A program made the translations under genes and the position numbers. Positions 3,642-59,669 of a DNA stretch of 64,000 bases are shown one piece after another. Where the stretch lies: positions 24,688 to 88,687 of the IMG/VR virus record IMGVR_UViG_3300020057_001229; one strand, 5' to 3'. Positions within the stretch are counted from its first letter, which is position 1; each line of letters begins with the position of its first letter. The stretch is from a virus. Under the pieces are notes generated by a model, which was not told the origin of the DNA, made no database searches, and worked only from the letters and a program-made list of their open reading frames with translations.

Positions 3642-3693
3642 AATTGTTTGCTGAAGAGAGGGGAGTGCGAACGTAAGATGCAAACGCGGAAGG

Positions 3694-3753
3694 TTACACC
3701 CGCCTGCGTTTTGCCTTAGAGAAAGATCTTGAAGATGTAGAGAGAAAGAACAT
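3694..3753 (-). promoter_or_regulatory. Putative Arg-sensing leader peptide MFFLSTSSRSFSKAKRRRV upstream of tRNA-Arg
   Basis: AGA plus CGC-AGG-CGG just before the stop; the Arg run lies in a hairpin arm; C-rich tract follows. Confidence 0.62.
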
Positions 3754-6475: not shown

Positions 6476-6514
6476 AAAGATCAGATGATGATCAGGCAGT
6501 TACCAGTCTTACTC

Positions 6515-6541
6515 TAAAGTCTTTAACCATTCGTCCGATAG
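6515..6541 (+). promoter_or_regulatory. sigma28-like promoter
   Basis: TAAAGTCT-N11-TCCGATAG upstream of the 6572 ORF. Confidence 0.6.
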
Positions 6542-6571
6542 AAGTCGTAACCACTCACAGAAGGCTTACCA

Positions 6572-6772
6572 ATGAAAATCAAATTGGACCTAGACGATCG
6601 GCTCAAGTTAGAAAAGCTAGCGAAGCTAGAGGGCTTCTCGTCTGCATCTGAGTACGCCTGCTTTCTCTTGGATAGTGCTATGAACTCCCTCTTGGAGAAG
6701 GCTGGTGGTGACGAAGACTACGCCGCTCTACTTGGCGCGGAAGAACTCTTCGGGAAGCAACTCCGTCAATAA
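6572..6772 (+). CDS. Small ribbon-helix-helix-like protein
   Basis: Alternating beta pattern KIKLDL then helices (LEKLAKLEG.S.SEY). Confidence 0.5.
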   Translation: MKIKLDLDDRLKLEKLAKLEGFSSASEYACFLLDSAMNSLLEKAGGDEDYAALLGAEELFGKQLRQ

Positions 6773-6786
6773 AGAGAGGCAAGAAA

Positions 6787-7185
6787 GTGAAGATCAAGCT
6801 TCAGGGGAACCTTCACGTTGCCCAAGAAGTCTTGAACGCCGTACAAGCTTTAGGCGTTCTCGACTCGTCGTTGCTGTGGGTGGAAGCCTACTCTAACGGG
6901 CGTGAGCAGGGCTTTGCGATCTTTCGTGCGACATCGAAAACAATGTCCGCCCGCTACATCATGTTCTCGGAATCTCGCGGCTCAGACCGCATCGTCATCT
7001 ACGACAACGGCGACAAGTCTCCCAACATGCAAGGCAACACGCCGTCTGAAGAGGCGTACAAAAAAGCGACGTACTTCGACTGCGGGCACTACACGCTCGC
7101 TGCCCAACACATCATCGGTCTTCTCGAAGAAGTTCCTACGACACGGCTCCAACGCTGGACGCAGAACCTTTCCCTCTCCGACTAA
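6787..7185 (+). CDS. Hypothetical protein
   Basis: GTG start with GAGG RBS, 132 aa. Confidence 0.65.
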   Translation: MKIKLQGNLHVAQEVLNAVQALGVLDSSLLWVEAYSNGREQGFAIFRATSKTMSARYIMFSESRGSDRIVIYDNGDKSPNMQGNTPSEEAYKKATYFDCGHYTLAAQHIIGLLEEVPTTRLQRWTQNLSLSD

Positions 7186-7219
7186 AAAGTCTAGACAAAA
7201 AGACCGCTACGGTTTAAAG

Positions 7220-7252
7220 GTGCAATACCTTCTCCTTCCATCGCTACCGTAA
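7220..7252 (+). promoter_or_regulatory. Second, diverged Leu/Pro-rich leader peptide (GTG start, MQYLLLPSLP)
   Basis: Homologous to 7674-7727; Leu/Pro content kept despite nucleotide divergence. Confidence 0.5.
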
Positions 7253-7254
7253 AG

Positions 7255-7569
7255 GTGCAGAGCAACCCGTCCCTTTCTATTTTTCAAGGCAGAAAGGGAA
7301 ACGAAGTGAGCACCATCTGGATGAAGCTGTTCAATAAGGTCGAAGAGGTAGCCAAGCCCTTCCTCGTCATTTCTGAAACCGCCACCTCGACCTGGCACTA
7401 CCACTTCCGACTGGTAGGTCCCGAGGGCGCGGCAGCGCTATGCGGCGCGAAACTCGGATGGGACACGACGATGCCGCTCTCGACGTGGGGGCTCAAGGAT
7501 CACATCCCGTCCCGCTACTGCGGAACATGCGAAAAGGAAGCGCGTGCTCGCGGTTTGTGGGCGGGGTGA
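7255..7569 (+). CDS. Hypothetical protein (probable start GTG ~7306)
   Basis: ORF with ALCG...YCGTC motifs, lying between the two leader copies. Confidence 0.6.
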   Translation: MQSNPSLSIFQGRKGNEVSTIWMKLFNKVEEVAKPFLVISETATSTWHYHFRLVGPEGAAALCGAKLGWDTTMPLSTWGLKDHIPSRYCGTCEKEARARGLWAG

Positions 7570-7638
7570 AGCTTAAGCTCTGCGTCTGCGAGAAGACCGC
7601 TGACGACTAAAAAATTCTCATCTACGCCTCGAAAAGTA

Positions 7639-7667
7639 TTGACGAAGAGACCGTACTACGATACGGT
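7639..7667 (+). promoter_or_regulatory. sigma70-like promoter of the tRNA-Pro/Leu operon
   Basis: TTGACG-N17-TACGGT; leader ATG starts 7 nt after the -10 box (leaderless). Confidence 0.6.
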
Positions 7668-7673
7668 TAATTT

Positions 7674-7727
7674 ATGCAATACTTTCTCCCTCCATTGCTA
7701 CCCCTCCTGACCAAGCTCTTACCGTAA
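7674..7727 (+). promoter_or_regulatory. Leu/Pro-sensing leader peptide MQYFLPPLLPLLTKLLP
   Basis: 7 Leu (CTC, TTG, CTA, CTG, TTA) and 4 Pro (all four codons) in 17 codons, upstream of tRNA-Pro and four tRNA-Leu. Confidence 0.78.
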
Positions 7728-7804
7728 AGGTAAAAGCAACACCGGTCCTATCTCCGTCTCTATTTTTCACCAGCTAAGTTTTTGAGGACAATCGTCATGT
7801 TAAA

Positions 7805-7957
7805 ATGACTCCATATCAGTGTTCGTGCTGTGGCTCCAAGACGACGCTCCCAACGTTGGTTTGGTTGCCTGAAAAAGCGCCAGAGATAGTTAAGGTAGAA
7901 TGTTTAAGGTGCGGGTTTGTGTGGTTGAAGCCGAAGGGCTTTAGTATCGTTCGATAA
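7805..7957 (+). CDS. Small zinc-ribbon protein (50 aa)
   Basis: CSCC...CLRC; below the ORF-track cutoff. Confidence 0.55.
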   Translation: MTPYQCSCCGSKTTLPTLVWLPEKAPEIVKVECLRCGFVWLKPKGFSIVR

Positions 7958-7958
7958 T

Positions 7959-8036
7959 CGGGCAGTGGGCTAATTGGTAAGCCGCTTGGTTTGGGACCAA
8001 GACATCATGCGAGTTCAAGTCTCGCCTGCCCGACCA
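7959..8036 (+). tRNA. tRNA-Pro(TGG)
   Basis: CGGGCAG...CTGCCCG-ACCA, loop TTTGGGA, T-loop TTCAAGT. Confidence 0.95.
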
Positions 8037-8076
8037 CTTCCTTAGATTCGTTTGGGAACTCAAAAGGAGATCCCAA

Positions 8077-8442
8077 ATGTCTGACGACATAGAGAAAAAA
8101 AGAAAGTATTGGCGTGATTGGTACTACAGAAAGATGGATCAAGATCCTGAGTGGCGTAAAGCAGAATCAGAGCGGAATAGCGTCAAGCGCAAAGTTAAGA
8201 GGGACTGGTTAGTAGGGCTGAAAAAAAGTATGAAGTGCGCCAGATGTGATTTTTCAGATTTTAGGGCGTTGTGCTTCCATCACTCCGATCCTTCGCAGAA
8301 AAAGGGGGAGATCGCAAATATGATAAAAGAAAACTACGGCAAAGAGCGGATTTTGGAGGAGATGGCTAAGTGTGAAGTTCTGTGTCAGAATTGCCACCAT
8401 ATTGAACACTATGAACAGCGTACACAGTCTAAAGTCGCATAA
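8077..8442 (+). CDS. HNH endonuclease
   Basis: CARC...LCFHHSDP...KCEVLCQNCHHIEH. Confidence 0.85.
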   Translation: MSDDIEKKRKYWRDWYYRKMDQDPEWRKAESERNSVKRKVKRDWLVGLKKSMKCARCDFSDFRALCFHHSDPSQKKGEIANMIKENYGKERILEEMAKCEVLCQNCHHIEHYEQRTQSKVA

Positions 8443-8560
8443 ATATCTTTTGAGTCTCGTGTGGTGGTGAAACTGGTTTACTTAGGATTGGGGGGAGAGA
8501 AGTAGGGCATCTATAGGTTCTATAGGACCATTTTCACCTACTTCTCAAAGGGCTTTTTCA

Positions 8561-8665
8561 ATGGCATATTTCAACGGTTTCGTTAGCGGCGTTCTATTTG
8601 GTCTCGGACTTTTCGTCGCTTCTGTGTTAGTACAGGCATTGTTCCATATGCCTTTGCTTGGGTAA
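8561..8665 (+). CDS. Small membrane peptide (34 aa)
   Basis: MAYFNGFVSGVLFGLGLFVASVLVQALFHMPLLG, one hydrophobic helix. Confidence 0.45.
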   Translation: MAYFNGFVSGVLFGLGLFVASVLVQALFHMPLLG

Positions 8666-8672
8666 ATCTTCC

Positions 8673-8757
8673 GCTGGCATGGTGGAATTGGTAGACACAT
8701 CAGTCTGAGAGGCTGACGGGGAAACTTGTGCAGGTTCGAGTCCTGTTGCCAGCACCA
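8673..8757 (+). tRNA. tRNA-Leu(GAG)
   Basis: GCTGGCA...TGCCAGC-ACCA, loop CTGAGAG, long variable arm. Confidence 0.93.
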
Positions 8758-8775
8758 TGTTTAGAAGAGAGTTCT

Positions 8776-9174
8776 GTGGAAATTAAAGGCACGCTAGCGG
8801 GTTGGTTTGAGACTGGTTCTGAAGGTACCTATTGGACCCTTCAAGATGAGAAACACATCGACGACAAAGGCATGTACTCCTACGAAGGGATGCATGTACT
8901 AAAAAGCGGTATGCAGCTAGTTATCCACTATCCAAAGTCAGATAAAGTCTATTGGGAAGGTCAGCTTGTTCTCGTTCCGGGTTACGATCCGAAACTTTTG
9001 AAAAAGCTAGGGTTGCATTACTACGTAAAAAAGCATCCGTCAGGGCTTAAGCAGCTCTCACTCGGCGGCTACTGGATACATAATTTACCGGTCGGGTTTG
9101 ATTTAGCAATTTGGTACCGGATCTTCTTTCTCGACGAAGGTTGGACCGGGACCTTAACCTTAATTAAGGACTAG
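8776..9174 (+). CDS. Hypothetical phage protein
   Basis: GTG start after the tRNA (the track start at 8728 overlaps the tRNA); FETGSEG motif. Confidence 0.7.
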   Translation: MEIKGTLAGWFETGSEGTYWTLQDEKHIDDKGMYSYEGMHVLKSGMQLVIHYPKSDKVYWEGQLVLVPGYDPKLLKKLGLHYYVKKHPSGLKQLSLGGYWIHNLPVGFDLAIWYRIFFLDEGWTGTLTLIKD

Positions 9175-9177
9175 CTG

Positions 9178-9414
9178 ATGCTACGAATGACGTTAGGTGC
9201 CAAAGCATATCTTGCGGGAAAAGCTCTTACGACGCCGCTGCTCAATGATCCCGTAGGTGATGAAGTGATACGCAGGCTCGACAAAGAGGATAGTGACGAT
9301 CAGTTCGATGCTTACATGATGTCTTTAGGCGACGGTGCTTCGCCCGACGACGTAGAGCTTACAGACGAAGAGTTAGACGAGTTGCGAAGAAGCAGTGAAG
9401 AGTACGAAGACTAA
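9178..9414 (+). CDS. Small acidic hypothetical protein
   Basis: Fills the gap between the CDS and the tRNA. Confidence 0.55.
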   Translation: MLRMTLGAKAYLAGKALTTPLLNDPVGDEVIRRLDKEDSDDQFDAYMMSLGDGASPDDVELTDEELDELRRSSEEYED

Positions 9415-9415
9415 A

Positions 9416-9499
9416 GGACCGATGATGGAATGGTAGACATGTCAGTTTCAAAAGCTGATGCTGTAAGGTGTGAGGGTTCAAGTCCCTCTCGGTCCACCA
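9416..9499 (+). tRNA. tRNA-Leu(CAA)
   Basis: GGACCGA...TCGGTCC-ACCA, loop TTCAAAA, long variable arm. Confidence 0.93.
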
Positions 9500-9503
9500 T
9501 AGC

Positions 9504-9527
9504 GGGGACGTGGTGAAATCGATAGAC
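9504..9527 (+). repeat. 5' fragment of tRNA-Leu(TAG); direct repeat of 9883-9906
   Basis: GGGGACGTGGTGAAATcGaTAGAC, 22/24 identical. Confidence 0.85.
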
Positions 9528-9592
9528 GAAAAGGGCAGACTTACCCATAATGAAAACGACTATTCTAACCACTTCTCATAAAGAAGAGTGCC

Positions 9593-9879
9593 ATGCAACA
9601 GCTCATTAACATGTTTGTTGGGAATCTTCCAAAACGAGTGTCTACCATTCGAGAAGCACAAGAAAGTGGGGACCTAGCAGAGGTTCAAAATTTAGCACAT
9701 CAGATGTTGGGATGTGCTGAAGGTTACGGCTTCCCTCAGTTAGGGCAAGTAGCAAGCAAGCAAGCAAGCTCGAAGCACTAATAAAAGACCATGGCAGCGA
9801 GCATAGCATCGAGTTGATGATTAATGCATTCGATGCCCAATGCCACTGCATTATCATCAGGCATGGTAATAGGCACTGA
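9593..9879 (+). pseudogene. Hpt (histidine phosphotransfer) domain gene frameshifted in an (AGCA)4 tract
   Basis: LAHQMLGCAEGYGFPQL Hpt motif; removing 8 nt restores VASKLEALIKD...RHGNRH*. Confidence 0.78.
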
Positions 9880-9882
9880 AAT

Positions 9883-9967
9883 GGGGACGTGGTGAAATTG
9901 GTAGACACACCGCGCTTAGAATGCGGCGATGAAAGTCATGTCGGTTCAAGTCCGACCGTCCCCACCA
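9883..9967 (+). tRNA. tRNA-Leu(TAG)
   Basis: GGGGACG...CGTCCCC-ACCA, loop CTTAGAA, long variable arm. Confidence 0.95.
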
Positions 9968-9996
9968 CTTTAAGTTAGCAAAACACATATCTCTAA

Positions 9997-10072
9997 GTCC
10001 ACGTAATCCAACGGCAGAGATAGAGCGCTTAAAACGCTTCCAGCGTGGGTTCGAATCCCACCGTGGACACCA
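9997..10072 (+). tRNA. tRNA-Leu(TAA) with short variable loop
   Basis: GTCCACG...CGTGGAC-ACCA, loop CTTAAAA, TTCGAAT; no long variable arm. Confidence 0.88.
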
Positions 10073-10153
10073 ATTTTTTATCCGAAGTATCAAGGCGCTC
10101 CGTTTTAGGCTAGACTCTATACGGAATTGCCCTCTCATACAAAGGTTTTAAAA

Positions 10154-10447
10154 ATGGAAACCAACTTCGCTAAACTTAATGATTTAATTGCCGATCATCT
10201 CATGGACGGCGACGTTGCAAACTATTCTAATGATGCTGCTGACGCTATTCTTATTGTTAAGAAGTTCCGCATGGACTTCATAGCTAATTTGACTGTCACC
10301 GACCATATGACCTTTATCACCTTAACGCATCTTTTAGAAACTAACAGAACTGTCACTATTAAAGAGCACAAGGCTGAAATGAGTGACCCCATCGCTACAG
10401 CCATTTGCAAAGCGTACTTAGCTATCCACGAGATCGAGTACGATTAG
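10154..10447 (+). CDS. Phage ABA-sandwich-like small protein
   Basis: YSND..DA..IV...AICKAYL pattern. Confidence 0.55.
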   Translation: METNFAKLNDLIADHLMDGDVANYSNDAADAILIVKKFRMDFIANLTVTDHMTFITLTHLLETNRTVTIKEHKAEMSDPIATAICKAYLAIHEIEYD

Positions 10448-10502
10448 CACTCCCCGATATGCCAAAGCTATTGTTGACACCTCCCATCATTTCGGACGTG
10501 CT

Positions 10503-10648
10503 GGTGACACGTTCGGTTCCCCCATGTAGGTCTTACAAGCACTGTAAATGCCGTTGCGTTGGTTCGAACCCAACCCTCCCGGTAACGGGGGGTAGCTCAG
10601 TTGGTAGAGCACGAAATTTAGCCCTATAACCTTGAACCGAACTTCACC
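10503..10648 (+). ncRNA. Circularly permuted tRNA-like RNA (YrlA/Y-RNA-like), copy 1
   Basis: Order: anticodon-like CTGTAAA, T arm, acceptor stem closed by GTAA, D arm; enclosed by GTTCGGTTC/GAACCGAAC stem. Confidence 0.82.
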
Positions 10649-10686
10649 CACCGCAAGGTGGGTGTCCTCTTTCTGGAGATATTTAT

Positions 10687-10735
10687 CAAAACCCAGCGTA
10701 AAACCCCCTGCTTTAGCCGTGGGGATATAAGCTGG
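10687..10735 (+). mobile_element. IS200/IS605-type left-end hairpin remnant
   Basis: TTTAT then CAAAACCCAGCGTAAAACCCCCTGCTTTAGCCGTGGGGATATAAGCTGG; no transposase follows. Confidence 0.65.
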
Positions 10736-10869
10736 CATTAAAACTAGTGCTAATATATATCATATTTACCTTAGCTGGTGCTGTAGGTGGTGGCATCGTC
10801 TTCGGCAGCAAAAGGTTAGGCAAGTGCTTAGCCATCGTCGAGTTTCCGTCCCGTCGAAAGTCACGCCGT

Positions 10870-11143
10870 CTTAGGCGTCATTCTGCGGTTGGGCTGTCGC
10901 CACTGTCTCAAAAAACAGCGCGGTTTTTATGCGCGCACGAGCAAGGTGTTTGAGGTGACCGTTTCGAGTCGTAATTGTCTCAATTCGGGCTATCTGCGAT
11001 GGACGGGGTACCGCCATTTCTCGATGATTTTGAACGTCCGCGCAACCCCAATGGCAACAAGAGCAAGTGGCACCCGAGCAAATGTTGACAATATCTCAGT
11101 AATATCTATGTGTTGTCATCCCAACCGTAGAATGACGCCTAAG
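10870..11143. mobile_element. 274-bp MITE-like element
   Basis: 24-bp terminal inverted repeats (23/24) flanked by an 8-bp direct repeat CACGCCGT. Confidence 0.8.
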
Positions 11144-11318
11144 CACGCCGTAGTACACCCGCAGGTAGAGCCTTTTACAAAGCGAGTTCGGGGATCGCTT
11201 CGTTCTTTACGTTCTTTCAGATCTTCGTCGTGAACTTCAAGAAGGATCATTGTCCTTCCATTGAATGGGACGACTAAGAGATGTAAGCTGGAACTTCATA
11301 TTCACAAAGGAGTTCTAG

Positions 11319-11633
11319 ATGTCCGAAGTAAAGAACAATGACCTCGCCTCGCATATTCCCGATAGCAAAATTACCTTCGTCGATTTTTGGGCTCCGTGGT
11401 GCGGACCCTGCAAAGGGCTTACGCCTATCCTTGAAGGCTTAGAAAAAGAAAACCCTGACAAGATGAAGCTCGTCAAGGTCAACATCGAAGACAACCAAGA
11501 GCTGTCTGAAAAGTTTGGTATCCGCACCGTCCCTACGATCATTGTCTACAAAGACGGTCAAGAAAAGCAGCGGATCATCGGCTCAAAACCTAAAAAGTTT
11601 TGGGAAGAGATCCTGACCGCTGATGACTTTTAG
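11319..11633 (+). CDS. trxA: Thioredoxin
   Basis: DFWAPWCGPCK and cis-Pro IRTVPT. Confidence 0.95.
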   Translation: MSEVKNNDLASHIPDSKITFVDFWAPWCGPCKGLTPILEGLEKENPDKMKLVKVNIEDNQELSEKFGIRTVPTIIVYKDGQEKQRIIGSKPKKFWEEILTADDF

Positions 11634-19151: not shown

Positions 19152-20642
19152 ATGCTGAAGGCAGTGCTGCGCATAGGAGGTGGTTTAGTCGCCGTGTTCG
19201 GTGTCGTGCTGGTGACGTACACACTTAAGAGGATAGACTCTTACCTCGCGGACACACCCCTGCTTCTAGGCATATCTTCGCTTACGCTGATCGCGTTTTT
19301 CTTCGGCTGGTGGTCCGCCGTCATCTCCGCGCTTGCTTTTATTACCCTCATTAAGCTCTACGTTTCGCCAGAAATCCACACGGTGTCTTTCAGTCTTTTT
19401 GTCGCTCAGACTGCGATCATTGCGGGGCTCATCGAGAAGCTAGGTAACGCACGCCGTAGCTGCTCAGACGAAGCTACCAAATGCCAAGAGACCGAACACG
19501 AGCTTCGAGCCGCAAAAGAGCACGCAGAAAGATCTAACCAGACTAAGGGAGAATTTCTAGCCAACATGAGCCACGAGCTTCGCACTCCTCTCGGTGTCAT
19601 TCTAGGCTACAGCGAAATCATAGCGAACGACACGCCTTCAAAGGAAGAGAAGATAGAATATGCTGACGCTATTAAGCGCAATGGTGAAACGTTAGCCAGA
19701 TTGATAGATGACATACTTGACCTAAGTCTTGCAGAAGCACAAAAGATAAGTATTGAAATACTACCTACATGCCTTAAAGATCTATGTACAGTTTTAGAAA
19801 AAGAGATGACGCCTCTAGCTGTACTAAAAAATATACGATTAAAGGTACACTGCGCCGATGTTCCTAATAACATACGCACTGACCCAATTCGTCTTAGACA
19901 AATACTTAGCAATCTAGTTAACAACGGTATTAAATTCACCCCTTACGGAGGTGAAGTAAGCGTGTATGTGGAAAAATATGAAGAGACGCTATGCTTCGTC
20001 GTTCGGGACAATGGTAAGGGAATTTCTACTGAAGAAGCTAAGAAGCTTTTCAAGCCCTTCTCACAAGCCGACAGCTCTACGACGCGGAAATATGGGGGGA
20101 CAGGCTTAGGCTTAGCGCTTTCTAAAAAGCTTGCTCAAAGCCTTGGCGGGGATGTTTTTTTGCGGGAAAGCGTTCCCGGCAAAGGGAGCACATTCGTTGT
20201 TCAAATCCACTTGACGCCGACATCCTTGCACGAGACCAAGAGCAAGCATAAACATTTTGACGGCGCTCTCGACGGTGTCCGAGTCCTTCTTGCCGACGAT
20301 GCCTTCGATAACAGACTGCTTTTGAAAGCGCTTTTGAAGCCAACGGGTGCGCTGCTTCGACTAGTGGAAGACGGCGAGCAAGCGCTTCAAGCTGTGCAAC
20401 AGCACGACTTTGACGTTGTTTTCTTAGATCTTCAAATGCCTATAATGGACGGCTACGAAGCTTGCCGTGCGCTGAGAAGTCAAGGCTACACAAAACCTAT
20501 CATCGCTTTGACCGCGCACGCTATGCAGGAAGAAAGAACCAAAACGAAGACTGCTGGGTTCGATGCCCATGTCACTAAGCCGGTCAACGTCGGAAACCTC
20601 GTGAGCGCAATTCGTGCCTCGCTCGACGCCAAACCGAGTTAG
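19152..20642 (+). CDS. Membrane hybrid sensor histidine kinase (HisKA-HATPase-REC)
   Basis: FLANMSHELRTPL, NGIKFT, DNGKGI, GGTGLGL, receiver LADD...DLQMP...KP. Confidence 0.96.
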   Translation: MLKAVLRIGGGLVAVFGVVLVTYTLKRIDSYLADTPLLLGISSLTLIAFFFGWWSAVISALAFITLIKLYVSPEIHTVSFSLFVAQTAIIAGLIEKLGNARRSCSDEATKCQETEHELRAAKEHAERSNQTKGEFLANMSHELRTPLGVILGYSEIIANDTPSKEEKIEYADAIKRNGETLARLIDDILDLSLAEAQKISIEILPTCLKDLCTVLEKEMTPLAVLKNIRLKVHCADVPNNIRTDPIRLRQILSNLVNNGIKFTPYGGEVSVYVEKYEETLCFVVRDNGKGISTEEAKKLFKPFSQADSSTTRKYGGTGLGLALSKKLAQSLGGDVFLRESVPGKGSTFVVQIHLTPTSLHETKSKHKHFDGALDGVRVLLADDAFDNRLLLKALLKPTGALLRLVEDGEQALQAVQQHDFDVVFLDLQMPIMDGYEACRALRSQGYTKPIIALTAHAMQEERTKTKTAGFDAHVTKPVNVGNLVSAIRASLDAKPS

Positions 20643-27485: not shown

Positions 27486-27507
27486 TTGGGTAATGGGAGT
27501 TCACAAA

Positions 27508-27549
27508 ATGTTCCGTTCCGTAAATAACAATAATGAAGAAACAAGCTAG
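27508..27549 (+). promoter_or_regulatory. Asn(/Glu)-sensing leader peptide MFRSVNNNNEETS
   Basis: GGAG RBS; AAT AAC AAT AAT GAA GAA; alternative in-frame ATG at 27493. Confidence 0.85.
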
Positions 27550-27603
27550 GGTCGAAAGTCCTTTCTGGCTTACGACCCGTTTGGTAACCCAAGCGGGTTT
27601 TTT
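27549..27603 (+). terminator. Attenuator: overlapping antiterminator and intrinsic terminator
   Basis: GGGTCG(27549)/CGACCC(27573) competes with ACCCGTTTGG-TAAC-CCAAGCGGGT-TTTTT. Confidence 0.82.
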
Positions 27604-27620
27604 ATTTGTATCGAATTTAT

Positions 27621-28629: not shown

Positions 28630-28671
28630 ATGCTGTTTCGACTAGAAGAAGAACAAATTAATTCGGGCTGA
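28630..28671 (+). promoter_or_regulatory. Glu-sensing leader peptide MLFRLEEEQINSG
   Basis: AAGGA RBS; GAA GAA GAA; 3' end TCGGGC is complementary to the terminator 5' arm. Confidence 0.85.
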
Positions 28672-28698
28672 GAGAGTCGGTAACGACAACTCTTTTAT

Positions 28699-28725
28699 GC
28701 CCGATCTTTGGATCGGGCTTTTTTT
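28699..28725 (+). terminator. Attenuator terminator directly before the tRNA-Glu genes
   Basis: GCCCGATC-TTTG-GATCGGGC-TTTTTTT. Confidence 0.88.
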
Positions 28726-28729
28726 ATGT

Positions 28730-30547: not shown

Positions 30548-30691
30548 GACTCAAGTCTATCTGGTATTGAATACCAGTACAACTGGGTTTCTTAATTGTC
30601 GTGTTCGCTATTTTGGTGCCCACACTTGTTACAGGTCTCACCTTTGACTAGAAGTCGGTAAAACCAAACACCGATACCTGCACCAACTATA

Positions 30692-30739
30692 TTGACATCC
30701 TCCCCACGGCTAAAGCAGGGGGTTTTACGCTGAGTTTCG
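30692..30739 (-). mobile_element. 48-bp miniature IS200/IS605-type element
   Basis: TTTAT target, palindrome CCCCCTGCTTTAGCCGTGGGG, ends GAGGATGTCAA; near-identical to 59584-59631. Confidence 0.75.
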
Positions 30740-30844
30740 ATAAAAAAGCCGCTTAAGGCGGCTTCTTTTGTAGAGCTTCTTGCTCTCGACTATTTTGATG
30801 GGCACTCATAGCACTCTGTTGTCGGAGCCTTCCTCGGTTTGTAC

Positions 30845-59407: not shown

Positions 59408-59583
59408 GGTTTTCCCTACTAACTAGAAGTGTTCGTAACAAAATCTTGCCTTTGGCATGTAATCTCAAAAGCTCAAGGAGCAAGGGATGTGCTGCCGGGG
59501 TCTGCTAGCACAATTGACCTTCGTTTCATGCTCAAATAATCTGCGAGTTGAATTGAAAGAAGCATGATTCAGAAATAGGGGTA

Positions 59584-59631
59584 TTGACATCCTCCCCACG
59601 GCTAAAGCAGGGGGTTTTACGCTGGGTCTTG
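59584..59631 (-). mobile_element. 48-bp miniature IS200/IS605-type element
   Basis: Near-identical to 30692-30739; sits in the U-tract of the capsid gene terminator. Confidence 0.75.
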
Positions 59632-59633
59632 AT

Positions 59634-59669
59634 AAAAAAAGAGGCAGGTTTCCCTGCCTCTTCTCTTTT
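59634..59669 (-). terminator. Intrinsic terminator after the major capsid gene
   Basis: AGAGGCAGG/CCTGCCTCT stem plus T-run on the minus strand. Confidence 0.8.

What the first reader, a model, noticed from the sequence alone, without database searches (positions are those of the whole stretch)
7639..10072. Leaderless Leu/Pro leader peptide that samples almost every Leu and Pro codon ahead of the Pro/Leu tRNA operon
MQYFLPPLLPLLTKLLP uses all four Pro codons and five of six Leu codons (CTC, TTG, CTA, CTG, TTA), matching the four Leu isoacceptors and tRNA-Pro downstream. The ATG lies 7 nt after a putative -10 box. There is no intrinsic terminator; instead a small hairpin covers the stop (TTACC-GTAAA-GGTAA) and a C-rich, G-poor tract follows, suggesting Rho-dependent attenuation (inference).
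Basis: partly seen in the sequence, partly recalled or inferred. Interest (0 to 1): 0.85.

Follow-up and report, generated by a model that had tools for sequence, protein, structure and literature searches.

The report
Leu/Pro test-ORF heading phage tRNA genes
A large uncultured phage begins its proline and leucine tRNA gene block with a tiny reading frame made mostly of proline and leucine codons, probably a ribosome-based gauge of how well those codons are read, although this copy has no ordinary transcription stop and how it acts is not shown.

Summary
A 17-codon ORF (ATG 7674, TAA 7725-7727; MQYFLPPLLPLLTKLLP) starts 7 nt after a TTGACG-N17-TACGGT promoter-like site. It lies 231 nt before tRNA-Pro and four tRNA-Leu genes.

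The Leu/Pro richness exceeds what composition gives (shuffles P 0.0008-0.009). It ranks 1 of 756 small ORFs in the 88.7-kb phage record.

The strongest support is context. Five of the record's six tRNA blocks are headed by a mini-ORF rich in that block's own amino acids: Ser/Thr, Arg (weak), Leu/Pro, Asn and Glu. Three of these carry terminator/antiterminator switches.

The Leu/Pro unit has no intrinsic terminator, and folding predicts no ribosome-dependent switch. Its own coding tract is the C-rich, G-poor stretch (99.8th percentile), so Rho-type control is possible but untested.

I found no homologues, no RNA data and no paper on this control of tRNA genes. Earlier notes of this scan report the same design on other phage DNA.

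Verdict: probably a real codon-matched leader ORF, mechanism open.

The parts
7639..7644 (+). -35-like hexamer TTGACG
   Evidence: Read. The same hexamer forms the -35 of the Asn-leader promoter. With the -10-like hexamer it matches 8 of 12 consensus positions, below the threshold of the scan.
7650..7667 (+). Inverted repeat ACCGTA / TACGGT. Its 3' arm (7662-7667) is the -10-like hexamer, 17 nt after the -35.
   Evidence: Copy A has a shorter version of this stretch (indels in the spacer stretch; alignment), which cuts its spacer to 10 nt.
7674..7727 (+). 17-codon Leu/Pro mini-ORF MQYFLPPLLPLLTKLLP*, with no Shine-Dalgarno. The A of the ATG is the 7th base after the -10-like hexamer (leaderless geometry).
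   Evidence: translation, shuffles, rank 1 of 756; the other two frames give 2 of 11 and 5 of 18 L+P. All four G of the ORF body sit at third codon positions (G 0.00 / 0.00 / 0.25 by codon position).
7715..7737 (+). Small AU-rich hairpin with the stop codon in its loop (TTACC / GTAAA / GGTAA core)
   Evidence: MFE folds. The 12 bases TACCGTAAAGGT are identical in copy A. No U run follows, so it is not a terminator.
7680..7759 (+). C-rich, G-poor stretch (C 30, G 10 in 80 nt): compositional candidate for a Rho loading (rut) site, mostly inside the mini-ORF
   Evidence: 99.8th percentile of all 80-nt windows on both strands of the record. This is composition only.
7784..7808 (+). Shine-Dalgarno GAGGA (7784-7788), then 8 nt, then a 3-codon uORF ATG TTA AAA TGA (7797-7808) whose stop overlaps the ATG (7805) of the next ORF
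   Evidence: Read. The SD is mostly paired in every modelled state (P unpaired 0.10-0.17).
7805..7957 (+). 50-aa CxxC...CxxC zinc-ribbon-like ORF between the leader and tRNA-Pro; its stop ends 1 nt before the tRNA
   Evidence: Pfam gives only a sub-threshold Zn_ribbon_TFIIS match (E 0.015). All 13 hits in 1.84 billion representatives are weak (best E 2e-8; 10 of 13 match proteins of 348 aa or more).
7959..8036 (+). tRNA-Pro(tgg)
8673..8757 (+). tRNA-Leu(gag)
9416..9499 (+). tRNA-Leu(caa)
9883..9967 (+). tRNA-Leu(tag)
9997..10072 (+). tRNA-Leu(taa), followed by a T run that may end the unit
7183..7292 (+). Paralogous copy A of the element. It has TAGACA (7192-7197), TACGGT (7208-7213, only a 10-nt spacer), then 6 nt, then GTG 7220 to TAA 7250-7252 = (M)QYLLLPSLP*. 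A hairpin CCCTTTCT / AGAAAGGG (7271-7298) buries the SD of ORF 7306-7569.
   Evidence: The indel inside the ORF is 21 nt (in frame), with the same stop and 6 of 9 L+P.
27493..27606 (+). Context: Asn leader (MFRSVNNNNEETS*, possibly starting at ATG 27493, 7 nt after TAGGAT) with antiterminator and terminator before tRNA-Asn
   Evidence: (rank 1 of 861 for Asn)
28630..28728 (+). Context: Glu leader (MLFRLEEEQINSG*) with antiterminator and terminator before two tRNA-Glu genes
3642..3753 (-). Context: weak Arg leader (MFFLSTSSRSFSKAKRRRV*) before tRNA-Arg(tct). It also has no terminator and has C>G (34 to 17).

Best explanation
The 17-codon ORF is a translated, codon-matched leader mini-gene at the head of the phage's Pro/Leu tRNA unit. 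It is one of five such leaders in this phage record. Inferred working: transcription starts at or next to the ATG, so a 70S ribosome begins on the 5' end (leaderless). The ribosome then reads 4 Pro and 7 Leu codons, and these include at least one codon for each of the five tRNAs behind it. How fast it passes these codons reports the supply of usable Pro- and Leu-tRNA. That report is coupled to how much transcription or translation reaches the zinc-ribbon ORF, tRNA-Pro and the Leu tRNAs. Unlike the Asn, Glu and Ser/Thr units of the same phage, the output here is not an intrinsic terminator. The most likely output (inference, about 0.3 on its own) is Rho-type. The CUN/CCN coding tract is itself a C-rich, G-poor loading site. 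A ribosome stalled on it hides the site and lets RNA polymerase run on, whereas fast translation and release leave it bare. Shown here: the sequence features, their statistics and the genome-wide pattern. Inferred: translation, the transcription start, sensing and output.
For: (1) The Leu/Pro content exceeds composition. At least 11 of 16 L+P occurs in 0.08% (mono) and 0.86% (dinucleotide) of 50,000 shuffles each. The ORF ranks 1 of 756 small ORFs. The four G of the ORF body sit only at third codon positions, and the other two frames are not L/P-rich.
(2) Genome-wide pattern. The record has 15 tRNAs in 6 blocks. Among 89 intergenic ATG ORFs of 8-30 codons, the first one ahead of each of five blocks is rich in that block's amino acids. 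These are S6/T5 before Ser, Ser, Ser, Thr; L7/P4 before Pro, Leu x4; N4 before Asn (rank 1 of 861); E3 before Glu x2; and, weakly, R4 (with S5) before Arg. The tRNA-Met block has a promoter but no leader.
(3) For Asn, Glu and Ser/Thr a strong terminator follows the leader. In truncated-transcript folds the terminator's 5' arm is pre-paired with the leader's 3' end when a ribosome is placed on the cognate codons (0.81, 0.38, 0.67). It is much less so when the ribosome is on the stop (0.14, 0.25, 0.20). The phage therefore does use ribosome-operated leaders before tRNAs.
(4) The -10-to-ATG spacing of 6-7 nt recurs at the Ser/Thr leader and at an in-frame ATG of the Asn leader.
(5) Paralogue copy A keeps the frame (21-nt indel), the stop and the Leu/Pro bias (6 of 9). 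The 5' part of the ORF is the only 28-nt block that blastn-short pairs between the copies (89%).
(6) Window 7680-7759 has C 30 and G 10, the 99.8th percentile. The two terminator-less leaders have C>G (C/G 2.85 and 1.94), while the three with terminators do not (0.92, 0.72, and 34 C to 33 G).
(7) Precedents. A stalled ribosome shields a Rut site in tnaC and cruR (passages of PMC12360218). Leaderless poly-Cys short ORFs act as attenuators in mycobacteria (abstract of bioRxiv 10.1101/834739).
Against: There is no direct evidence of transcription start, translation or regulation.
The -10-like hexamer matches 3 of 6 positions and the promoter scan did not list the site.
The loose pattern TTGNNN-N16-18-TANNNT-N5-8-ATG is as frequent as in shuffles (9 found against 9.5 +/- 3.1).
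There is no terminator. Equilibrium folds with a ribosome masked at five positions show no change in SD exposure (0.10-0.17). The fold of 7668-7830 is not unusually stable (z -1.59).
Copy A sits before a protein gene, has GTG instead of ATG and a 10-nt promoter spacer. All 3 substitutions inside the shared ORF part are non-synonymous C/T changes, which a selected pyrimidine tract would also give.
A 50-aa ORF lies between the leader and tRNA-Pro. The Leu tRNAs lie 0.95-2.3 kb downstream, behind further ORFs (one HNH-like by eye) and a promoter-like site at 9523-9551.
The codon-sampling claim reaches only P = 0.026.
I found no homologue, so the test for frame conservation in relatives could not be run.
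The host, and hence the presence of Rho, is unknown.
Confidence: 0.6

Rival explanations
1. The mini-ORF is incidental. The element is a repeated phage regulatory cassette (promoter, stem-loop and a pyrimidine-rich 5' UTR ending in an SD-burying hairpin), duplicated in a region of small ORFan genes, in the manner of the PeSL cassettes of T4-like phages. The Leu/Pro reading follows from a selected C/U-rich tract.
For: Two copies lie 450 nt apart. Copy A stands before protein ORF 7306-7569, not before a tRNA. It has GTG for ATG and a different -35/-10 spacing. The substitutions inside the shared ORF part are all C/T transitions that change the amino acid. In both copies the segment just 5' of the shared TATTTTTCA is complementary to the SD of the next ORF (CCCTTTCT/AGAAAGGG in A; GTCCT/AGGAC in B, by eye). 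No ribosome-dependent switch is predicted. The neighbouring genes are ORFans. PeSLs are composite promoter/terminator motifs that mediate shuffling in such regions (abstract of PMC4122927).
Against: A plain pyrimidine tract would not place every G at third codon positions, nor reach 11 of 16 L+P in one frame only. The indel between the copies is in frame and adds five Leu/Pro codons out of seven. The ORF is the top L+P ORF of the record and sits exactly before the only Pro/Leu tRNA block, while four other tRNA blocks have their own matched leaders. Only 2 copies exist in 88.7 kb, unlike a dispersed cassette family.
Confidence: 0.25
2. The ORF is a real leader, but its output is translational, as in the mycobacterial leaderless poly-Cys short ORFs. 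The C/U-rich coding tract or the segment after it pairs with the SD GAGGA (7784-7788). A ribosome stalled on Leu/Pro codons frees the SD, so the MLK uORF and zinc-ribbon ORF are translated, and the transcript is protected as far as tRNA-Pro.
For: The MFE of 7668-7830 pairs CCUC of the leader with GAGG of the SD. The SD is mostly paired (P unpaired 0.10-0.17). Copy A buries its SD completely (0.00). Precedent: abstract of bioRxiv 10.1101/834739.
Against: Masking a ribosome footprint at four positions in copy B (three in copy A) does not raise the predicted SD exposure. The pairing is only 4-5 bp and the fold is not better than shuffles (z -1.59). tRNAs need transcription, not translation.
Confidence: 0.12
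3. The ORF encodes a small functional Leu/Pro-rich peptide, unrelated to tRNA control.
For: Only that it is an open frame next to a promoter-like site.
Against: It has 17 residues, four of them prolines. The copy A version is 7 residues shorter and all three substitutions in the shared part change the residue. No homologue was found.
Confidence: 0.03

Closest known systems
Classical leader-peptide transcription attenuators of amino-acid operons (trpL, hisL, leuL, thrL, ilvL type; recalled textbook knowledge, and Turnbough 2019 seen only in the reference list of PMC12360218)
   Same: A short ORF at the 5' end of a unit, enriched in the codons whose decoding reports the supply of the product. 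It is multivalent (two amino acids), like the thr and ilv leaders.
   Different: The controlled genes are tRNA genes rather than biosynthetic enzymes. There is no Shine-Dalgarno (leaderless geometry), no intrinsic terminator and no antiterminator.
uORF-dependent Rho attenuators: tnaC of tnaCAB, cruR of Bordetella, mgtL/corL of Salmonella (passages of the review PMC12360218)
   Same: A leader ORF without an intrinsic terminator and a C-rich, G-poor tract next to or inside it. In tnaC and cruR a stalled ribosome shields the Rut site and allows read-through.
   Different: In those systems stalling is set by a ligand or ion at the stop codon or by leader restructuring. Here it would be hungry Leu/Pro codons inside the Rut-like tract. 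Rho dependence is untested and the host is unknown.
Leaderless poly-Cys short ORFs of mycobacteria (bioRxiv 10.1101/834739; abstract read)
   Same: [quoted passage not shown] Several units in one genome respond to the same signal through ribosome pausing.
   Different: Those control translation of cysteine-metabolism genes by unmasking a ribosome-binding site. Here no such switch is predicted and the cargo is tRNA genes of a phage.
Codon-matched leader ORFs before phage tRNA blocks, noted by this scan in other phage genomes (AI notes, e.g. e1-5402871, e1-5362210, e1-5668515). Four literature searches found no paper on this.
   Same: The first ORF of a tRNA block is spelled in the amino acids of the tRNAs behind it, and this recurs at several blocks of one genome. 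Leaderless and terminator-less versions are also noted there.
   Different: Those notes concern unrelated DNA and I did not check them. This unit also has a decayed paralogue and a protein ORF between the leader and the first tRNA.
PeSL promoter/stem-loop cassettes of T4-like phages (PMC4122927, abstract read; PMC2839356, search listing only)
   Same: A repeated intergenic promoter-plus-stem-loop sequence in a region of small variable genes and tRNAs.
   Different: Only two adjacent copies exist. The best-conserved block is an open, Leu/Pro-periodic frame, and the stem-loop lies inside the promoter spacer rather than acting as a terminator.

Membership tests
Classical leader-peptide (Rho-independent) attenuator | Short upstream ORF enriched in codons cognate to the controlled product | tested here: met
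   11 of 16 codons are Leu/Pro. Shuffle P 0.0008-0.0086; rank 1 of 756. All five downstream tRNAs have a cognate codon.
Classical leader-peptide (Rho-independent) attenuator | Intrinsic terminator between the leader and the first controlled gene | tested here: not met
   The scan lists no terminator-like site between 7728 and 7804, and only a weak 5-bp candidate inside the next ORF (7842-7858). No hairpin abuts the two U runs in the folds.
Classical leader-peptide (Rho-independent) attenuator | Antiterminator that overlaps the leader's 3' part and competes with the terminator | tested here: not met
   There is no terminator to compete with. By contrast the Asn, Glu and Ser/Thr units of the same record show this feature.
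uORF-dependent Rho attenuator (tnaC / cruR / mgtL type) | C-rich, G-poor unstructured tract of about 70-80 nt at or next to the uORF | tested here: met
   7680-7759 has C 30 and G 10, the 99.8th percentile of the record. This is composition only.
uORF-dependent Rho attenuator (tnaC / cruR / mgtL type) | Termination depends on Rho and is relieved by a ribosome stalled on the uORF | not testable with these tools
   This needs bicyclomycin or Rho depletion, or in vitro transcription. The host is unresolved (the kinase gene's best genome hits are 40-46% identical, to Bdellovibrio and Planctomycetota MAGs).
Leaderless short-ORF attenuator (mycobacterial Cys type) | Transcript begins with the AUG/GUG of the short ORF | tested here: inconclusive
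   The geometry fits (A of the ATG is the 7th base after TACGGT, with no SD) and recurs at two other leaders. The TSS is not mapped, no RNA run was listed and the loose pattern is not enriched over shuffles.
Leaderless short-ORF attenuator (mycobacterial Cys type) | RNA duplex that sequesters the RBS of the next gene and is blocked by the stalled ribosome | tested here: not met
   The SD is mostly paired, but its exposure is unchanged by any of four masked ribosome positions (0.10-0.17). This is an equilibrium model only.
Codon-matched leader ORFs heading phage tRNA blocks (unpublished; notes of this scan) | First ORF of the block is spelled in the amino acids of the tRNAs behind it, and this recurs at other blocks of the same genome | tested here: met
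   5 of 6 blocks, one of them weak (Arg).
Codon-matched leader ORFs heading phage tRNA blocks (unpublished; notes of this scan) | Conservation of the frame and codon classes in relatives | tested here: inconclusive
   No relative carries the element. The only relative of useful length found through the capsid protein (236 kb; the two other matching contigs are 6 and 21 kb) has just Ser, Ser and Tyr tRNAs, without leaders. The one paralogue keeps the frame.
PeSL-like mobile regulatory cassette | Many dispersed copies of a promoter/terminator stem-loop motif flanking variable genes | tested here: not met
   Only 2 adjacent copies in 88.7 kb. The stem-loop is not followed by a U run.

The most novel reading that the evidence does not exclude
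This is a terminator-less, leaderless member of an unpublished class of phage sensors that switch on tRNA genes when their own codons are read slowly. The Leu (CUN) and Pro (CCN) codons of the test ORF serve two purposes. They are the sensed codons and, being C-rich and G-poor, they are also the Rho loading site. A ribosome starved of Leu- or Pro-tRNA (for example after a host anticodon nuclease attack) physically hides the site, and RNA polymerase runs on into the tRNA-Pro and tRNA-Leu genes.
Probability: 0.25. Interest if true: 0.85.

Novelty: new variant of a known kind. Interest (0 to 1): 0.66.

Why it matters
Phage tRNA genes are usually discussed as fixed codon-usage helpers or as spares against host tRNA-cutting defences. 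If phages gate each tRNA block with a tiny ORF written in that block's codons, they measure decoding speed directly and make tRNAs on demand. That would be a feedback loop on tRNA supply, which four literature searches did not find described.

This unit adds three things to the textbook-like Asn, Glu and Ser/Thr units of the same phage. The design can work, or at least persist, without an intrinsic terminator. It can start on a leaderless mRNA. It also evolves by local duplication and in-frame expansion of the codon tract.

The unit offers a compact, testable construct of about 300 nt for asking whether ribosome stalling on ordinary sense codons can control Rho or polarity ahead of RNA genes.

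Tried and rejected
**Homologues**
- IUPAC patterns of the conserved core found 0 stretches in viral contigs and 0 in metagenome contigs.
- A 36-nt stretch of tRNA-Pro found 0 in viral contigs.
- blastn against 50,697 phage records matched only the tRNAs (40 records, none covering 80% or more).
- The neighbouring proteins are ORFans. The 132-aa protein 6787-7185 and the 132-aa protein 8776-9174 each matched only themselves. The 87-aa protein had no relative in viral contigs. The zinc-ribbon ORF had 13 weak hits, best E 2e-8.
- The HNH-like ORF found 2 loci at 45-47% identity, which I did not pursue because such genes are mobile.
- Through the major head protein (phrog_2522) I reached 3 loci at 70-71% identity. 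The 236-kb record holds 3 tRNAs (Ser, Ser, Tyr), with no leader seen by eye in 700 nt upstream. It is uninformative.

**Known RNA families**
- No known RNA family matches: Rfam at E up to 1 over 6500-11500 gave only the five tRNAs and two sub-threshold hits.

**Sequencing runs**
- 7 runs were listed, all microbial-mat DNA. No RNA holder was listed.
- I laid 4 of those 7 runs (X3-X6). No differing letters were reported in the leader where it was covered; cover there is thin.

**Folding models**
- Equilibrium folding with masked ribosomes shows no switch for the Leu/Pro unit.
- The same full-length model also failed to show the switch in the Asn and Ser/Thr units, where the terminator stays dominant at 0.85-1.0. 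It is therefore a weak negative. Only the truncated-transcript model separated the states there, and that model cannot be applied to a unit without a terminator.

**Promoter geometry and host**
- The promoter geometry is not evidence on its own: 9 matches against 9.5 +/- 3.1 in shuffles.
- Host inference from the kinase gene: the best of 80 kept loci are 36-46% identical and spread over Bdellovibrionota, Planctomycetota and others. No call is possible.

- Supplements of the papers were not opened. They could hold lists of leader ORFs that bear on the claim that this is not in print.

Full report
**What is there**

The window is bases 24688-88687 of an 88.7-kb IMG/VR virus record, classed as 'provirus' and 32% complete by CheckV. 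Its major head protein matches phrog_2522, and most of its genes have no family.

At 7674-7727 the + strand reads ATG CAA TAC TTT CTC CCT CCA TTG CTA CCC CTC CTG ACC AAG CTC TTA CCG TAA, which is MQYFLPPLLPLLTKLLP*. All four Pro codons and five of six Leu codons occur. The start is at 7674, not 7675 as I first counted.

Upstream lie TTGACG (7639-7644), a 17-nt spacer and TACGGT (7662-7667). The A of the ATG is the 7th base after that hexamer, and there is no Shine-Dalgarno.

Downstream, in order, lie these features:
- an SD (GAGGA, 7784-7788);
- a 3-codon uORF whose stop overlaps the next start;
- a 50-aa zinc-ribbon-like ORF (7805-7957);
- tRNA-Pro(tgg), 1 nt after that ORF's stop;
- an HNH-like ORF (by eye; no Pfam match), several small ORFs and a broken Hpt gene, interleaved with tRNA-Leu(gag), (caa), (tag) and (taa), ending at 10072.

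The one exception is that the C-rich, G-poor tract is the ORF itself (C 0.39, G 0.09) rather than what follows it (C 0.23, G 0.17).

**Is it more than composition?**

Yes, moderately.
- Shuffling the 48 nt between start and stop gives at least 11 Leu+Pro codons in 0.08% (mononucleotide) and 0.86% (dinucleotide) of 50,000 shuffles each.
- The other two frames of the same stretch give 2 of 11 and 5 of 18 L+P.
- The four G of the ORF body all sit at third codon positions (G 0.00, 0.00, 0.25 by codon position). This is a three-base periodicity that a plain pyrimidine tract would not show.
- Among 756 ATG ORFs of 10-30 codons on both strands of the record, this one ranks first for L+P fraction (0.65, next 0.47).
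- The claim that it 'samples almost every codon' is weaker. With the phage's own codon usage, 7 Leu and 4 Pro codons reach at least 5 and 4 types together with P = 0.026. All four Leu tRNAs get a cognate codon with P = 0.28.

**Genome context, the main argument**

ARAGORN on the whole record finds 15 tRNAs in six blocks. I listed all 89 intergenic ATG ORFs of 8-30 codons. The first one ahead of each of five blocks is rich in that block's own amino acids.
- MKNFVSTTSSCSTSSTTEGG (6 Ser, 5 Thr) stands before Ser(cga), Ser(tga), Ser(gga) and Thr(tgt). It lies outside the window, on the minus strand of the record at 10606-10668.
- MQYFLPPLLPLLTKLLP stands before Pro and four Leu.
- MFRSVNNNNEETS stands before Asn. 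It ranks 1 of 861 for Asn fraction; its run of four Asn compares with two at most in any ORF elsewhere in the record.
- MLFRLEEEQINSG stands before two Glu.
- MFFLSTSSRSFSKAKRRRV stands, weakly, before Arg(tct).

The tRNA-Met block has a promoter-like site and no leader. Other small ORFs within 400 nt upstream of a tRNA do not match. One of them overlaps the Arg promoter, three lie in the remnant of the Hpt gene and one is the tail of a gene.

For Ser/Thr, Asn and Glu a strong terminator with a U run follows the leader, and the leader's last codons are complementary to the terminator's 5' arm. I folded transcripts truncated before the 3' arm. That 5' arm is already paired upstream when a ribosome footprint is placed on the cognate codons (0.81, 0.38, 0.67). 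It is far less so when the footprint is on the stop codon (0.14, 0.25, 0.20). This phage therefore does place ribosome-operated leaders before tRNA genes. The Leu/Pro ORF occupies the same position and obeys the same matching rule.

**The leaderless geometry recurs**

The Ser/Thr leader has TTGCGT-N17-GATTAT-N7-ATG. An in-frame ATG of the Asn leader (27493) lies 7 nt after TAGGAT.

On its own this geometry proves little. The loose pattern occurs 9 times in the record, against 9.5 +/- 3.1 in shuffles. The Leu/Pro site matches only 8 of 12 consensus positions, and the scan missed it.

**The paralogue**

There it stands in front of an 87-aa ORF (7306-7569).

Copy A has the same TACGGT, then 6 nt, then a start codon. 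The start is GTG, the -35-like TAGACA is only 10 nt from TACGGT, and the ORF is (M)QYLLLPSLP*. The difference inside the ORF is a 21-nt indel, which is in frame. In copy B this indel adds seven codons, five of them Leu or Pro. The last two codons, the stop and the next five bases are identical (12 of 12).

The 5' part of the ORF is the only 28-nt block that blastn-short pairs between the copies (89%). The three substitutions inside it are all C/T changes that alter the residue but stay within Leu, Pro, Ser and Phe.

I read copy A as a decayed duplicate, or one served only by read-through. It keeps the rival reading of a repeated promoter/5'-UTR cassette alive. The kept frame and periodicity fit a coding constraint slightly better.

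**Mechanism**

There is no intrinsic terminator between the ORF and tRNA-Pro. No hairpin abuts either U run. The fold of 7668-7830 is not unusual (z -1.59).

A translational switch of the mycobacterial kind is not predicted. The SD at 7784-7788 is mostly paired with no ribosome and with a ribosome masked at four positions (P unpaired 0.10-0.17). In copy A the SD is buried in all four modelled states (0.00). This model is a weak negative, because the same equilibrium approach also missed the switch in two of the three control units.

What remains is composition. Window 7680-7759 has 30 C and 10 G, the 99.8th percentile of all 80-nt windows. The two terminator-less leaders, Leu/Pro and Arg, have C>G (C/G 2.85 and 1.94). 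The three with terminators do not (0.92, 0.72, and 34 C to 33 G).

A review of Rho-dependent termination describes uORFs in which a stalled ribosome shields a Rut site (tnaC; cruR, where the site is intragenic). [quoted passage not shown]

The coherent inference is that the Leu/Pro codons are both the sensed codons and the Rho loading site. I put this at about 0.3. Nothing here tests it, and the host is unknown.

**What could not be done**

Only DNA runs from microbial mats hold the stretch.

**Comparison and novelty**

The unit works like a multivalent leader peptide. It fails two defining features of the classical attenuator family, the terminator and the antiterminator. It fits the Rho-uORF family by composition only.

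Four full-text searches found no paper on leader peptides controlling tRNA genes; 159 papers held at least 3 of the 4 terms, and none of the 12 listed is on this subject. Earlier AI notes of this scan report the same design in many other phage genomes, including leaderless and terminator-less versions. I did not check those notes and do not count them as evidence.

**Verdict**

This is probably (0.6) a real codon-matched leader ORF of an unpublished kind of tRNA-gene control. In this unit the output step is unknown.

Noticed in passing
Outside the window: record G000:C1:10606-10668 (minus strand) and the 130 nt after it: Ser/Thr leader MKNFVSTTSSCSTSSTTEGG* with TTGCGT-N17-GATTAT-N7-ATG. It has a four-segment layout (leader codons pair with the next segment, which is complementary to the 5' arm of a strong terminator with a U run). 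An ORF and then tRNA-Ser x3 and tRNA-Thr follow.
   Followed up: partly
window 27493-27549: The Asn leader has an in-frame ATG at 27493, 7 nt after the -10 TAGGAT, so it may also start leaderless as MGVHKMFRSVNNNNEETS, in addition to the SD-led ATG at 27508.
   Followed up: partly
window 7784-7808: A three-codon uORF (ATG TTA AAA TGA) sits 8 nt after the SD GAGGA and overlaps the ATG of the zinc-ribbon ORF (ATGA). Both starts lie in a small hairpin. This suggests termination-reinitiation coupling.
   Followed up: no
window 9593-9781 (repeat at about 9749-9768): The Hpt-domain ORF (Pfam Hpt, E 8.4e-8) is cut to 62 aa by an (AGCA)n tetranucleotide repeat. One contig of run X3 lacks 8 letters at 9751, and that allele reads through to 92 aa. 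The gene is therefore switched on and off by repeat length among mat populations.
   Followed up: partly
window 8497-8546: By eye, a perfect 10-bp inverted repeat (GAGAAGTAGG ... CCTACTTCTC) between the HNH-like ORF and a 34-aa hydrophobic ORF that ends 7 nt before tRNA-Leu(gag). It was not folded.
   Followed up: no
window 30690-30747 and 59582-59639: A 58-nt repeat, 95% identical, starting with TATTGACA and holding a CCCC...GGGGG inverted repeat. The ORF list suggests a related stretch on the minus strand near 10690-10740.
   Followed up: no
window 10557-10610: Sub-threshold Rfam match to YrlA (Y RNA-like): 28.8 bits against a gathering score of 69. It lies where another note of this scan describes a permuted tRNA-like RNA.
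   Followed up: no
window 19152-20642: A phage-borne hybrid histidine kinase (HisKA, HATPase_c, receiver). The best genome matches are only 36-46% identical, to Bdellovibrio, Oligoflexus and Planctomycetota MAGs, so the host cannot be named.
   Followed up: partly
window 7594-7618: The stretch AGACCGCT...GACTAAAAAAT just upstream of copy B repeats pieces of copy A's 5' edge (GACTAAAAAGT, AGACCGCT). This hints at repeated recombination at this junction.
   Followed up: no
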